Positions 39,689 to 51,600 of a stretch of DNA of 64,000 bases are shown piece by piece (the stretch's first letter is position 1; every line of letters begins with the position of its first letter). The stretch spans positions 28,458,001-28,522,000 of the forward strand of contig OZ281496.1 in assembly GCA_965637545.1 (NCBI GenBank), in the 5' to 3' direction. The position numbers were made by a program. This DNA comes from Phallusia mammillata. Lineage: Eukaryota.

Positions 39689-42600
39689 TTTTCAATGTGA
39701 ATTAACGCAAATAACGTTGAATATAAATTCAATCATTGGTACGTGCGCGTGCCATTAGTTAGTAAATATTGATCAATTCGGTTGGTCGTGTAACAAAGGC
39801 TAACACAAGTGTAGTTTTCTGCACCTTGTTTTCGCATATAGGAGTATACACTGCAGTATACCCAATGCGATAAGAATCTGTAGCAATACGATCCCTAAAA
39901 AAACAGTTTTGTTTGCAAATTTTCTACAATAGAGTTATAGAGCTGACGTAGCGCTTTTAAGCCAAAGCCCTGCAGAATATTGAGTTGTACTTACATTTTA
40001 GTTCTAAACCTTAACATGGAAGCTTGGATTTCGCAGCAGAGAAAAATCTAATAAGCGGTGTATGAAGATGTTTTGAATCAAAAATATACTCATGTAGAAA
40101 ATATCTTTACCCAAGAACACTGAATGTGCTTGTTATTATATAAGGGTGATTCCAGCAGATACGAACAAATAAGCTTAACGGCACTCATAAATCAGTATGC
40201 AAGAGCAGACCGCGATTGTTAATCCCGATTTAGATTTAACGATACTTTTTTTTGTAACATCAAAGGCAAGCATTATTGATTTTTCCATAGAGAGGTAAAC
40301 AGGACCTAAAAATGCCAATTGTGTGCTGAAATCGATATCTTTATGTCGTTCAATAATGCACAGATTGTTACCATGTGCTAAAATCTTCAGCTGTTCTATC
40401 AAAACTAAAAAGCTATTAATACGATAGATTAGATTACCGACTTAAACGTAAATGTTCCAACAAATCTCAAACGAAAAATATGGTGCAGTTGCTACACATA
40501 TTTTGTCCGATAAGTCGGATAAATGTTTTAATACTGCCGGTAGAGCGAAAAGAGATGTTATATTTTTTCGGCTTACATGAGCCATAACGGTGGACTGATA
40601 ATGCCAGCGACATTGTGTTACTAAAACTTACTTTATCTATTTAGGTGTAATGTTTGTTATCATGTAAAATATCTGTGACACTTGATTACTATGGCAAGTA
40701 CTGCAACGCTCCGTATCAAGCTGTTTCGATCTGACACAAGCTGGCTTAAAAATAACCGTAAGGAGCCGGTCCAACGACTGTTGCAGGATTCAATCGAGCA
40801 AGTAGTCACAGAGGAATCAAGTTCAACTTTCGAAAAGGTTCTTACTGATTGCGCTGAAATATGCAGTATCACGCCTATCTATTTGCCGCTTTTCGGGCTA
40901 AAGAATAAGAAAACTTCGCACTGGACGAACCTGGCTTCAACGATACAAAGTTATCTTCAGGAGCAGAGTACGGATGATAGCGATTCGTTGAGTTTATTGT
41001 CTACAGTGTTGGAACTGGAATTCAGAATCCGGTTCCAGTTTAAAGGTGATGCTTTCCGGGTGTCCGAAGAAAACGGAAATACATATCCGGTATACGACCG
41101 GACATTGATTTATCTTTTTCATCAGCATCGGGAAGACTTCCGTTTTGGGCGGCTAAAATTTCACGAACGCACTTCAGAGGACGGAGACAAAAACAACTTA
41201 GGACTAGCTGCATTTGACTTGTTAAGGCTGGGACGTGAGGCAAAACTTGATTATCCCGAAGTGAAGAATAGTGTAAAGTTGAAAAGGCTTCTATCGTGCA
41301 GTTATAATGATATCGTATCGTCCAGAAATGGGTTGCAGATGTTATCAGTGAAGCAAATATTGGTAAAGAGGAGATTCGACAATTACCTGATGCAGTTAAA
41401 GACACGCTACAAGCAATCGACAGAAAGCCTACGCGACCAACTGTATTTTCATCATAAATACGTGAACACCCTGGAAGGTCTGTTGCAATTTAATTATGCG
41501 GAAAGTTACGATGTCATTCCGCAAACAGAAGACCCAGACGAATGTGTAAAAGTGTCTGTTGGGCCATACCTCGAAGTCGTCAAGCATTCTGCAAACGATA
41601 CGGTTGGTTCGCAGTGGTGCAAACTTTCGGACCTTGTATGCATCAACATTGCTGAAAAGAATGCATACTGGACAGTGACATTGGTTCATTTCAGTGGTGA
41701 AACACTGTCTGTAGATCTGGCTTCAAAGTGGGAAGCCGAAGGACTGGTCTCTTGCATCGACGGTTACAACTATCTTCTGGTCGATCCACATTACTACTTG
41801 TGCAAGTCGGTTTGCCGACCTTCGCTTGTTGAGCAAATAAGGCTTTCCTGCCATGGATGTATTTCTTTTGCGCTGGCTTCCCATCTACTAAAGAATCATC
41901 CCAATCCCAGAACCGGAGACTGTATATTAAGATGCAGCAGCGACGAATTCCAAGCTTACTTCATCACTACGATCTCTCAACTCGAACAAGATGGACAAAA
42001 CTTGATCAAAAACTTCAAAATTGCTCGCGATGCAAACGGTTTTGGAATATATGGAGCGGAGAGCCGCCATGAAACTTTGGCCAGTTTGCTTGAAGAGTAC
42101 AAAGATGGTTACGCGAGCAGGATGCAGTTTGAAATTTCGCGGTTGCGACATCCGTTGGTCAAGCAGCAATGTTCAATTTTAGTTCACAAAGGCAAAGAGA
42201 TCAACCCGATTACTACATCCGAACCTACCGAGGTTCCATTAATTTCTCAAGATGCTTACTCTTATGTTGAAAAACTAGGAGGTGGAATGTTTTCGGATGT
42301 TATTCTCCACAAGGATGAAGCCAACAAACTTGTTGTTATCAAACAGATGATTGAGGTTTCGGACTACGGAATACGTCAACACGTTCAGAAATCATTCCAA
42401 GATTCAAGGATCCGCTTCAAACAGCTCAACAACTTCATGGAGGCTGGCCAAAACAAAAGCAAACACATTTTGCAAATTCTTAGTTTTTCTATGCACACAA
42501 ACGTCGTTCTCGAGTACATGCCTTTGGGCTCGATAACAGATCATCTGAGAAAACGCAAAGAATCCCTTGACCAGGATTTGACGTTGCACTTCGTAAGACA

Positions 42601-48600: not shown

Positions 48601-51600
48601 TCCACAGCCATTCCTAGTATTAATGGTGACAAATGGAGCTTTGCAACAACAGTATGTGAAATATGTCATTGGAGTTTGTCCAGTAGTTTCTGCAGGCCTG
48701 AAAACGCTTATGGTCTCAAACCAAATCTTAAAGAAAGGTTCCGAGATCAAGAACAACCAGTTGTTTCACTTCCAGACATGTTAATGGCACCAGAGTTAAA
48801 AACAGTTAGAAATCTGCTGATGAAATGCTGGAGTATTTGGCCTGAAAACAGACCGGCCTTCAGACACATTCTTCGGGAACTTGGTGCAGTTTCAAGCAAC
48901 TTTGACTACCAAAATGTAGAACTTCCACAAACTGCGCCAGAGGAAATTCTACCCGACTTGGATGTATATGATGACCAAAATTTGATGACAGTGCGTTCTT
49001 TGGGAAATGGGCATTTTGGTTACGTTGACTTGTGTCAGTATGACAGGTATCGTAATGGTCAAAATGAACCAGTGGCTGTAAAGTCACTTATTCGGAACGC
49101 TAACAACCAGAAGTACCGCAATATTTTGTACAATGAAATCCAGACAATGCGCCAAATCAATCATCGCTATGTGGTAAAACTGAAAGGAGTTACATTCCCA
49201 TCTGTAAGGATTGTAATGGAGTACCTTGCATGTGGCCCTTTGGGAAAATATCTCCGGGACAACAGTGGAAAAATGCCTCTTCAAAGTTTGTTTCATCAAC
49301 TGTATGTCTTTTCGAGTCAAATTTCAGATGGAATGCAAGCCTTGCAAGAGCATCGACTGATACATCGTGACCTAGCGCTCAGAAATATATTGCTTAATCG
49401 AGATGGAGAGAACTCACCCTTGTATGTAAAAATCTCTGATTTCGGCCTTTCTCGTGTCGTGAATGAGGAGGAATCGTACTACAGAGGAAACCTTGATGAT
49501 TTTCCTGCATTATGGTATGCTCCTGAGTGCCTATGTCCTTCAGACATATCAGTACCTTTTCAGTTTGAGTCTGATGTGTGGTCATTTGGAATTACAATTT
49601 GGGAGATGTTTTCATTCGGAGAAAAAAAGCCAAGGTACCCTTCCTTACCCTCAGTCAAAAGAGAAGACATTGGAAAACTGAGAGAACTGCTGTCAAATGG
49701 GGAAAGGCTTTTGCAGCCTGAGCACTGTCCTCCTGAGGTGTATGATATAATGGGTTTGTGCTGGCAGTTCAACCCACAAGCAAGAATTGGGTTCAATGAT
49801 CTGCAGCAACGCTTTATTGCCCTAGCTGGTAATGCATAGTATGCAAATACTGATCTTTAATGACTGTCTTGGCAATATGGTACATTAAGACAATAGTATA
49901 CAACGCAATCCTGTTCAATTTGGGTTAGATACTATGTTTCAAAAATGTGCAATACATAACACTTTGGAGAAATAATTTGCTTTTCATCACATAATTTTAT
50001 AAAAACATACAAAATTGCGGTTGCAGTTTAATCATGTAGATATGTTGTTGTATTGTTCAGCTGAATGTCAGCATGCACTTTTTTACTTGTTTTCATTCTT
50101 TTGAAATCATTTTCATGAGTTTTATGTGTATCAAACCAAAAAAATTCATTCTTGTGTGTTACTGAATCTGCCTTATGTTTTTTTTACCATTTTTATGTTG
50201 TTGTTGTTGTTGTTTTGTATAACACCCCAGAATGAACTTATCAAACATTTTCAAATTCCGCTCTATGCTTTTACATTTTCACATTTAGTCTGGTACTTTA
50301 TGTAATTGACAAACCTTTCAAATTTGTTGGTGCATATCTACTAATTTTGTGCGACTGCATAATGCTGCAGTTTCCAGTAATACAGTAACACAATAGTTGC
50401 AGCACAGCATACAGACTGCTGGGCCGGTTGCACCAAAAGGCCTGACACATTTGATATCTCCTTCCTGTATTGTTTTCCATTTAAACTCTATTTGTAGTTT
50501 CATGTGGTTGGCTCTGCTATCATCCTTGTTATCGATTGTGTTTTGTTGCTACTGTTGTAATATACTCATTATCCAGTGTTACTTGGAATGGGTCTGGTTA
50601 TTGTGAACCTCAATAAAGGTTACAGAAAAGTCTTTCAAATGACAAATTGTAAACTTTTTCTTGTATTTCTTAGTTCAGTGTGTAAACACAGTAGCCACTT
50701 CATCACAATTTGCTAAATTTTATATAGAATGACCACACTGTCTACCAGTGGCATTGAAACAGCAGAATATATTGATTGTCCCATAGATTTTATTGTATTG
50801 TTTACACAATAAAGGTGAACGCTACATGTCCTTAAAACTTAACCAGTTTTCAAATTTCAAAGACATAATTTTAATTTGAAATAGGCCTCAATAAAACACC
50901 TAAACCCATGTCTTAAACTACTTTTAATTTGAGTTAGGAGAAATAAAGTACAAGGGGAAAATTAGAAGAAAAATGTTGCTGATTGCCGGTAGAGCGCGGT
51001 CTGCTCAAACACACTGTTTGTACAGTACAGGTGTCAGCTTCATGTTGCTACAAACCTGTTTCCCTAATATGCTGGTTGTGTACTTCTGTTCAGTGACGTA
51101 GGCCAGGCCAATGCACTGGTGGGGGAAAAGTTTGGTTTAAAAACTTCTATTGTTTGGGGGGGGGGGGGGGGGGGGGGTTAACCTTCGCCAACAGTTTGGT
51201 TACAAAATAGTTTTGTTGCCAGTGAGTTCAAAAATAAGTTACATAAAAGACATATTAAGGGCGTCTGAGCGCAATTATCGTGCATGCTAGAAACCAAAAA
51301 AGGCCTTATGTTTAAAAACTTAAACATAAAAGTGAATTGGAAAATCTCAAAAGTAAGCTAGTTCATATTAGCATCAAAGTTCTGCATCGTGATTGCTATT
51401 AATGAAATAATTCTTTGTACTGCGCGTTGGAGTATAAACGTGTTTTGCGTTGTTACCTGCTTCCCCTTCTGAGGAACCCGAATACCACGTCAAGGCGTCA
51501 GTCAAAGTAGAATCTTACGGTTTGTTAGGCAGGCACTGGAACATTGCTGACAAAATTTAGCAAAGCACCAAATGCCCTTTCTTTAACAAGGTCAAAACAA

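What the first reader, a model, noticed from the sequence alone, without database searches (positions are those of the whole stretch)
40691..49839. Two tandem JAK genes with completely intronless 3.4-kb coding sequences
Seen: both ORFs encode a full FERM-SH2-pseudokinase-kinase protein in one exon, each with an acceptor just 5' of the ATG. Neighbouring genes are intron-dense (CesA has 28 exons). The two proteins are deeply diverged, and both keep catalytic motifs and activation-loop YY. Established: vertebrate JAK genes have more than 20 coding exons. Inference: retroposition, or wholesale intron loss through cDNA recombination, followed by an old tandem duplication. This would be a JAK diversification independent of vertebrate JAK1/2/3/TYK2.
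Basis: partly seen in the sequence, partly recalled or inferred. Interest (0 to 1): 0.65.

Follow-up and report, generated by a model that had tools for sequence, protein, structure and literature searches.

The report
Tandem intronless JAK kinase genes, sea squirt
Two neighbouring, intron-free Janus kinase genes in the sea squirt Phallusia mammillata are real and arose by a duplication private to that lineage, which is a modest addition because a second Jak gene is already reported in Ciona.

Summary
Two same-strand ATG ORFs, 40691-44044 (1117 aa, JAK-A) and 46447-49839 (1130 aa, JAK-B), each encode a whole FERM-SH2-pseudokinase-kinase protein. They are 43% identical.

JAK-B matches the deposited Phallusia mammillata JAK at 1129 of 1130 residues without gaps. 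The window is therefore ascidian, and the JAK-B coding sequence is uninterrupted. JAK-A is absent from the protein collections searched.

JAK-A and JAK-B are sisters (100/100) inside a tunicate-like clade and outside fish JAK2. Both gene halves agree. An AU test rejects an older split (p 7e-5).

JAK-A evolves faster but keeps every catalytic motif. Synonymous sites are saturated while pN is 0.37.

Most likely the introns were lost through reverse transcription before a tandem DNA duplication. No poly(A) tract, target-site duplication or spliced-leader remnant survives to separate retroposition from cDNA recombination.

Exon structure in other tunicates could not be tested. Ciona is already reported to have two Jak genes (PMC11094015). 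Interest is moderate to low.

The parts
40691..44044 (+). JAK-A: single-exon coding sequence, 1117 aa. Approximate domains in protein residues: FERM 1-385, SH2-like 386-500, JH2 pseudokinase 520-800, JH1 kinase 830-1102. Faster-evolving paralogue with no matching protein in the collections searched.
   Evidence: absent from collections; relative-rate test
46447..49839 (+). JAK-B: single-exon coding sequence, 1130 aa. It is the deposited Phallusia mammillata 'JAK Janus kinase' (UniProt A0A6F9DET0), with one residue different.
40627..40644 (+). Acceptor-like site (pyrimidine tract plus AG) 46 nt upstream of the JAK-A ATG. It could be a 5'UTR-intron acceptor or a spliced-leader trans-splice acceptor.
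   Evidence: passes the crude filter; 79 such sites in 64 kb; function inferred
46418..46440 (+). Acceptor-like site (T-rich tract followed by tatacag) ending 6 nt upstream of the JAK-B ATG.
   Evidence: sequence; fails the strict filter; function inferred
44045..46446 (+). Spacer of 2402 bp between the two genes. It is too long for a Ciona-type operon junction and holds the foldback repeat 45828-46259.
   Evidence: operon junctions without intercistronic DNA are described in PMC1488885

Best explanation
The window comes from the ascidian Phallusia mammillata and holds two functional Janus kinase genes in tandem, each with its whole coding sequence in one exon.

Proposed order of events:
1. 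An ancestral multi-exon JAK lost all coding introns in one reverse-transcriptase-mediated step. This was either retroposition of a processed mRNA or replacement of the gene by its cDNA. This step is inferred.
2. The intron-free gene, together with its 5' acceptor, was duplicated in tandem at the DNA level. This happened in the Phallusia lineage after it split from the lineage of the sampled Ciona JAK. The timing is shown by the trees.
3. JAK-B stayed the conservative copy, and JAK-A evolved about twice as fast, mainly in JH2 and JH1. Both stayed under purifying selection and keep all catalytic and regulatory motifs. This is shown.

Both proteins should therefore work as ordinary JAKs. FERM-SH2 would bind a cytokine-receptor tail. 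JH2 would restrain JH1. Trans-phosphorylation of the YY loop would activate JH1, which would then phosphorylate STATs. This is inferred from family knowledge. The AG sites just upstream of the ATGs are most simply spliced-leader or 5'UTR acceptors (inferred).
For: - Two intact ORFs with full JAK architecture.
- JAK-B is 1129/1130 identical and gap-free to the deposited Phallusia JAK. The single difference suggests an independent source.
- JAK-A has an in-frame stop 12 nt before its ATG and no AG in between.
- Sisterhood of JAK-A and JAK-B: 100/100 in a 26-row IQ-TREE mixture tree. SH-aLRT is 100 for the FERM-SH2 half and 99 for the JH2-JH1 half, in 21-row trees.
- An AU test rejects grouping JAK-B with P0011 and Ciona P0160 to the exclusion of JAK-A (lnL difference 89, p 6.8e-5).
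- Purifying selection: pN 0.368 against pS 0.82 over 1086 codons. All motifs are kept.
- Rate asymmetry: 146 changes unique to JAK-A against 93 unique to JAK-B with outgroup P0011, and 152 against 82 with Ciona.
- Parsimony: both copies are intron-free, so the loss came first.
- Background: single-exon genes make up 15% of non-operon Ciona genes, and about half of Ciona genes are trans-spliced (PMC2760879 passages).
Against: - There is no direct trace of reverse transcription. No A-run of 8 or more lies within 1.5 kb after either stop. No flanking direct repeats were found. Nothing within 3 mismatches of the 16-nt spliced leader lies near either ATG.
- There is no transcript evidence for JAK-A, and no protein matching it in any collection.
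- Whether the ancestor's introns were lost in Phallusia's line or much earlier is unknown, because no other tunicate genome could be read.
- The AU group was named after the tree had been seen, and the test used the simpler LG+G4 model. The mixture-model AU test did not finish.
- The sister position of P0011 is only moderately supported (85/94). The species of 9 of the 10 tunicate-like comparison proteins are unknown.
Confidence: 0.7

Rival explanations
1. The two genes descend from an older tunicate duplication, the one that gave Ciona Jak-a and Jak-b. Their apparent sisterhood would then be an artefact of gene conversion or long branches.
For: Ciona is reported to have two Jak genes (PMC11094015 passages). 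In the kinase half JAK-B is more identical to P0011 (50% in JH2, 57% in JH1) than to JAK-A (43%, 53%). Only one named Ciona protein (P0160) was available.
Against: JAK-A and JAK-B are sisters at 100/100 over the whole length, and at 100 and 99 in each half separately. Partial conversion therefore does not explain it. The AU test rejects the alternative. The higher JAK-B to P0011 identity is accounted for by JAK-A's faster rate. The Ciona genes lie on different chromosomes, whereas these two are in tandem.
Confidence: 0.1
2. JAK-A is a silent or decaying duplicate and not a working gene.
For: No protein matching it exists in the collections. It evolves faster than JAK-B. Its GC3 differs, 0.467 against 0.336.
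Against: The frame is open for 1117 codons although synonymous sites are saturated (pS 0.82, pN 0.368). Every catalytic and regulatory motif is intact. The domain architecture is full.
Confidence: 0.08
3. The introns were removed one by one by genomic deletions, or by several partial cDNA conversions, and not in a single reverse-transcription event.
For: No retroposition hallmark is present. Tunicates show high intron turnover (PMC4122922 passages).
Against: Exact removal of every intron from a 3.4-kb coding sequence while the neighbouring CesA stays split is more simply explained by one cDNA-based event. Hallmarks would be expected to have decayed at this divergence.
Confidence: 0.12
4. Two separate retrocopies happened to land side by side.
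For: Both are intron-free. A small insert elsewhere in the window carries a spliced leader and target-site repeats, which shows that retroposition occurs in this genome.
Against: Same strand, head-to-tail, 2.4 kb apart and each other's closest relatives. A tandem DNA duplication needs one event.
Confidence: 0.03

Closest known systems
Phallusia mammillata 'JAK Janus kinase' (UniProt A0A6F9DET0; P0003)
   Same: JAK-B is this protein: 1129 of 1130 residues identical, same length, no gaps.
   Different: One residue differs (F/Y at 765). The deposited entry says nothing here about gene structure or about a neighbouring paralogue.
Ciona Jak genes: Ciona intestinalis F6TV83 (P0160); Jak-a KH.C1.555 and Jak-b KH.C8.409 of PMC11094015
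   Same: Same four-domain architecture. P0160 is 43% identical to JAK-B and 37% to JAK-A over the full length. Ciona is also reported to have two Jak genes.
   Different: The Ciona genes are on chromosomes 1 and 8, not in tandem. The Phallusia pair arose after the split from P0160. Which Ciona gene P0160 represents, and the exon structure of either, could not be established.
Vertebrate JAK2 (solved structures 4z32, 6e2p; fish JAK2-type P0163, P0164, P0166)
   Same: Best vertebrate match for both copies. FERM-SH2 scores 107 bits for JAK-A and 154 bits for JAK-B. JH1 hits are mostly JAK2. Motifs including YY are shared.
   Different: Only 27-31% identical over the full length, and outside the tunicate-like clade. 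Vertebrate JAK genes are split by many introns with an identical structure across the family (PMC3296744 passage). The figure of more than 20 coding exons is recalled, not seen.
Functional retrogenes and cDNA-mediated intron loss
   Same: A complete coding sequence without introns in a family that is intron-rich elsewhere.
   Different: There is no poly(A) remnant, no target-site duplication and no identified parent. The genes are duplicated in tandem.

Membership tests
Janus kinase (JAK) family | N-terminal FERM domain (F1-F3) | tested here: met
   FERM_F2 is above its cut-off in both (37.9 and 64.1 bits against 26). FERM_F1 is above in JAK-B (31.6 against 26.1) and below in JAK-A (22.5). JAK2 FERM-SH2 structures align to 47-500 (JAK-A) and 46-428 (JAK-B).
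Janus kinase (JAK) family | SH2-like domain between FERM and the kinases | tested here: met
   SH2_1 scores 35.7 bits in JAK-A (cut-off 27) and 20.1 in JAK-B (below cut-off). JAK1 FERM-SH2 structures align to 335-499 (JAK-A) and 341-502 (JAK-B). The conserved LR of the SH2 core is present in both.
Janus kinase (JAK) family | JH2 pseudokinase with HGN..KN loop and DPG in place of DFG | tested here: met
   HGNIRAKN / HGNIRGKN and SDPGV / GDPGV, aligned with fish JAK2 HGNVCAKN and SDPGI.
Janus kinase (JAK) family | C-terminal JH1 tyrosine kinase with catalytic motifs and activation-loop YY | tested here: met
   PK_Tyr E-values of 2e-103 and 5e-100. GxGxxG, VAVK, HRDLALRN, DFG, YY and APE are present in both.
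Janus kinase (JAK) family | Binds cytokine-receptor tails and phosphorylates STATs | not testable with these tools
   Needs biochemistry. Inferred from architecture only.
A vertebrate JAK subfamily (JAK1, JAK2, JAK3 or TYK2) | Groups inside one vertebrate subfamily in a tree | tested here: not met
   Both copies lie in a tunicate-like clade, outside fish JAK2. JAK1, JAK3 and TYK2 were not in the tree, because only unnamed vertebrate-like representatives were on hand and these were left out. Structure-sequence ranking is the same for both copies.
Retrogene (processed retrocopy) | Coding sequence without introns | tested here: met
Retrogene (processed retrocopy) | Poly(A) remnant at the 3' end | tested here: not met
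   No A-run of 8 or more within 1.5 kb after either stop. Decay is expected at this divergence.
Retrogene (processed retrocopy) | Flanking target-site duplication | tested here: not met
   No direct repeat brackets either gene in 38500-52000.
Retrogene (processed retrocopy) | Intron-bearing parent elsewhere, or a new genomic position compared with relatives | not testable with these tools
Spliced-leader trans-spliced ascidian gene | Unpaired acceptor shortly upstream of the start codon that receives the 16-nt leader | tested here: inconclusive
   AG sites lie at -46 (JAK-A) and -6 (JAK-B). No transcript 5' ends were available.

The most novel reading that the evidence does not exclude
A single retroposition of a trans-spliced JAK mRNA early in ascidian or tunicate history replaced the intron-rich chordate JAK gene. 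Spliced-leader trans-splicing would have let the promoter-less copy be expressed from any upstream acceptor. The compact one-exon gene was then duplicated repeatedly and independently: a dispersed pair in Ciona and a tandem pair in Phallusia. That would give tunicates their own JAK diversification in parallel with the vertebrate one. JAK-A would be a neofunctionalised kinase, perhaps paired with a different cytokine receptor.
Probability: 0.25. Interest if true: 0.5.

Novelty: new member of a known kind. Interest (0 to 1): 0.33.

Why it matters
JAK-STAT reviews state that urochordates keep a single JAK and that the family expanded only with the vertebrate genome duplications (PMC3296744 and PMC3670263 passages). 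This locus shows a second, lineage-specific and apparently functional JAK in Phallusia. Together with the two Jak genes reported for Ciona (PMC11094015), it shows that tunicates expanded the family on their own.

The complete absence of coding introns makes the locus a clean case for asking how reverse-transcription-based intron loss interacts with trans-splicing in tunicates. It also gives two compact genes that are easy to clone whole for functional work in a transparent embryo.

The finding is a useful annotation and a small evolutionary point. It does not describe a new kind of system.

Tried and rejected
- Spliced-leader remnant as a retroposition mark. A T-rich stretch before the JAK-B ATG looked a little like the Ciona leader. 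The leader as printed in Table 1 of PMC1488885 has no match within 3 mismatches near either gene. Idea dropped.
- Naming the unnamed homologues. The listing of cluster members could not be run for them. The third homologue search, with a 16-row profile, returned 7 proteins and no new named JAK. The species of P0011-P0014, P0016-P0018, P0161, P0162 and of the invertebrate-like outgroups therefore stay unknown.
- Vertebrate subfamily test. The four named fish proteins all proved to be JAK2-type, 62-88% identical to each other. The 11 unnamed vertebrate-like representatives (37-70% identical to fish JAK2) might be human and were left out. JAK1, JAK3 and TYK2 were therefore compared only through the solved-structure search.
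- The AU test under the mixture model did not finish in two calls. It was rerun with 21 rows and LG+G4.
- Rfam at gathering threshold found nothing in the window.
- Hino 2003 and Tokuoka 2022 are not held.
- Haplotype or assembly duplication was rejected, because the copies are only 43% identical with saturated synonymous sites.
- An operon was rejected, because the spacer is 2402 bp while Ciona operon cistrons abut.
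Full report
**What is there**

Between 39000 and 51500 exactly two ATG-initiated ORFs of at least 150 aa exist, both on the + strand. They are 40691-44044 (1117 aa, here JAK-A) and 46447-49839 (1130 aa, here JAK-B), head to tail and 2402 bp apart. The window contains no N.

Pfam finds two tyrosine-kinase stretches and FERM_F2 in both proteins.
- FERM_F1 is above its cut-off in JAK-B and just below it in JAK-A.
- SH2_1 is above its cut-off in JAK-A and below it in JAK-B.
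- Jak1_Phl gives a sub-threshold match in JAK-B.

Against solved structures, JAK-A aligns in one stretch (305-1101) to full-length JAK1 7t6f. The first 520 residues of each protein align to JAK2 FERM-SH2 structures, at 107 bits for JAK-A and 154 bits for JAK-B. The two proteins share 491 of 1134 aligned positions (43%).

In a nine-sequence alignment both keep the JH1 motifs GxGxxG, VAVK, HRDLALRN, DFG, YY and APE. Both also keep the JH2 hallmarks HGN..KN and DPG.

**Organism, and proof of the intron-free state**

JAK-B is 1129/1130 identical, with no gap, to UniProt A0A6F9DET0, 'JAK Janus kinase' of Phallusia mammillata. That species belongs to Phlebobranchia, Ascidiidae. The window is therefore ascidian and not human.

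The single F/Y difference suggests the deposited protein comes from another individual. I recall that these entries derive from transcripts, but no call showed this. Either way, the deposited protein is colinear with the genomic ORF.

JAK-A is colinear with JAK-B apart from small gaps, 59 gapped positions in total. It has an in-frame stop 12 nt upstream of its ATG with no AG in between. No upstream coding exon can therefore be joined to it.

JAK-A's exact sequence is not in the 15-billion-protein collection. An exhaustive HMMER scan of the 1.84-billion representatives returned nothing closer to it than JAK-B. The paralogue appears to be undeposited.

**Surroundings**

The neighbours were scanned ORF piece by ORF piece only (24 pieces, 7 with a Pfam hit at E up to 0.01).
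- C-type lectin exons lie on the minus strand near 724-1071 and 4421-4735.
- A BEL/Pao-type LTR retrotransposon lies at 13936-17019 and 17490-18704.
- A cellulose synthase gene on the minus strand is split over several pieces: GT2 at 25722-26516, and GH6 at 22752-23270 and 21152-21496.

The AG 'acceptors' are plausible but not demonstrated. JAK-A's site ends 46 nt before the ATG and passes a crude polypyrimidine filter. That filter finds 79 sites on the + strand of the window, which gives a chance of about 0.06 per 50 nt. JAK-B's tatacag, 6 nt before the ATG, fails that filter. About half of Ciona genes receive a 16-nt spliced leader at such unpaired acceptors (PMC1488885 and PMC2760879 passages). 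A trans-splice acceptor is therefore as likely as a 5'UTR intron.

**Relatives and timing of the duplication**

The representative scan gave 174,220 proteins at E up to 0.001, and the best 150 were listed.
- After JAK-B itself come seven full-length proteins scoring 769-1126 bits: P0011-P0014 and P0016-P0018.
- A 2911-aa multi-kinase protein, P0015, also appears and was not used.
- Scores then drop to 548 bits and lower.

A FERM-SH2-restricted search named only two kinds of protein among its hits. One is Ciona intestinalis F6TV83 (P0160). The others are four fish proteins, which proved to be all JAK2-type.

Every tunicate-like protein is closer to JAK-B (35-43%) than to JAK-A (32-38%).

The main tree was an IQ-TREE LG+C20+F+G4 tree of 26 rows and 1129 columns.
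- Rows used: the 2 window proteins, 10 tunicate-like, 3 fish JAK2 and 11 invertebrate-like.
- Rows left out: the shorter fish P0165, the fragments P0028, P0034 and P0130, P0015, the remaining partial or weaker hits and the non-JAK hits, and 11 unnamed vertebrate-like representatives that might be human.
- Result: JAK-A and JAK-B are sisters at 100/100. They lie within a tunicate-like clade (12 rows at 88/99; 13 rows with the long-branched P0023 at 100/99), and fish JAK2 is outside.

Supporting tests:
- Trees of the FERM-SH2 half and of the JH2-JH1 half give the same sisterhood, with SH-aLRT 100 and 99. These used 21 rows, with five long-branched outgroups dropped. Partial gene conversion is therefore not the cause.
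- An AU test (21 rows, LG+G4) rejects holding JAK-B with P0011 and Ciona P0160 to the exclusion of JAK-A (lnL difference 89, p 6.8e-5). Two caveats apply. The group was chosen after seeing the tree, and the mixture-model version did not finish.

The duplication is thus private to the Phallusia line. It is nevertheless old in neutral terms:
- pS is 0.82 (saturated) and pN is 0.368 over 1086 codons.
- Only 185 of 473 identical degenerate residues use the same codon.
- DNA similarity survives only in short coding patches.

JAK-A is the fast copy:
- Terminal branch 0.94 against 0.49.
- 146 unique changes against 93 with outgroup P0011, and 152 against 82 with Ciona.
- The excess sits in JH2 (44 against 25) and JH1 (38 against 14).

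**Relation to vertebrate subfamilies**

JAK1, JAK3 and TYK2 could not be put in the tree, for the reason given above. Indirectly, both copies rank the solved FERM-SH2 structures in the same order, JAK2 > JAK1 > TYK2. Both sit in the tunicate-like clade. Nothing suggests that they belong to different vertebrate subfamilies.

**Mechanism**

Vertebrate JAK genes share one conserved multi-exon structure (PMC3296744 passage). The exon number itself is recalled, not seen. Since both Phallusia copies lack coding introns, the loss most simply preceded the tandem DNA duplication.

Removal of every intron from 3.4 kb, next to an intron-rich CesA, points to a cDNA intermediate. I could not separate retroposition from in-place cDNA recombination:
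- No A-run of 8 or more lies within 1.5 kb after either stop.
- No bracketing direct repeats were found.
- No leader-like sequence lies near the ATGs.
- No other genome was available for a synteny check.

At this divergence such marks would have decayed in any case.

**What is known**

Two reviews state that Ciona keeps a single JAK (passages of PMC3296744 and PMC3670263). A 2024 paper states that genome-wide surveys found two, Jak-a KH.C1.555 and Jak-b KH.C8.409 (passages of PMC11094015). It cites Hino 2003 and Tokuoka 2022, neither of which is held. Duplicated tunicate JAKs are therefore already in print.

I found no statement on the exon structure of any tunicate JAK, and none on a second Phallusia JAK. 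Only listings were seen, plus passages of the papers named above.

Single-exon genes make up 15% of non-operon Ciona genes (PMC2760879 passage). An intron-free gene is therefore not exceptional in an ascidian.

**What stayed unchecked**
Exon structure and synteny in other tunicates, and a search for a spliced parental JAK in Phallusia, were therefore impossible.
- The species of the unnamed homologues are unknown.
- The appendix files of PMC11094015 (its Table S2 and Fig. S5) were not consulted and may bear on which Ciona gene P0160 represents.
- A weak hint concerns gene structure elsewhere. Some unnamed homologues look like plain ORF calls: P0162 has a 39-residue F/L/I-rich N-terminal extension, and P0028 starts with M where homologues have V. 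If so, the full-length ones would be intron-free as well. The way those proteins were predicted is not known to me.

**Verdict**

The locus is a lineage-specific tandem pair of intron-free, apparently functional JAK genes in Phallusia mammillata, and one of the pair is undeposited. It is a new member of a known family with an unusual but not unprecedented gene structure. Interest is moderate to low.

Noticed in passing
window 56468-56599 (minus strand): An exact 16/16 copy of the Ciona spliced leader (Table 1 of PMC1488885) lies at 56574-56589, where 0.0002 exact matches are expected. It is not followed by a GT donor, so it is not an SL RNA gene. It heads a 112-nt insert with AATAAA 17 nt before its end, flanked by a 10-bp direct repeat (56590-56599 and 56468-56477). 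This looks like a retroposed short trans-spliced RNA. It shows that retroposition of leader-bearing RNAs occurs in this genome.
   Followed up: partly
window 45828-46259: A foldback element about 190 bp upstream of the JAK-B ATG. It has two inverted arms, up to 95% complementary over 98 nt, each built of about 31-bp tandem repeats. It could be a MITE-like insertion or a regulatory structure.
   Followed up: no
window 13462-18704 (+ strand): A BEL/Pao-type LTR retrotransposon with long open frames. They carry Peptidase_A17, RVT_1, integrase (rve, Integrase_H2C2) and DUF5641, and the region has raised GC of 0.48. LTRs were not looked for.
   Followed up: no
window about 21000-36000 (minus strand): The tunicate cellulose synthase gene (GT2 plus GH6 domains) is split over many ORF pieces. 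It is the classic horizontally acquired tunicate gene. Its exons were not joined or counted.
   Followed up: partly
window 52257-54254 (minus strand): A 665-aa open frame that is GC-rich (0.495), serine- and arginine-rich and of low complexity, with no Pfam match. It is probably a large exon of an unidentified gene.
   Followed up: no
window 724-1071 and 4421-4735 (minus strand): Two C-type lectin domain exons (E 7e-10 and 2e-11).
   Followed up: no
window 39253-39598 and 39657-39687: A 176-bp unit repeated twice (80% match) and a (GT)15 microsatellite, about 1 kb upstream of JAK-A.
   Followed up: no
homologues P0012 and P0014 (activation loop): The activation-loop YY is not universal among tunicate-like JAKs. 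P0012 has CY and P0014 has TY, while both Phallusia copies keep YY.
   Followed up: no
literature: Reviews state that Ciona has one JAK (PMC3296744, PMC3670263). PMC11094015 reports two, Jak-a on chromosome 1 and Jak-b on chromosome 8.
   Followed up: partly
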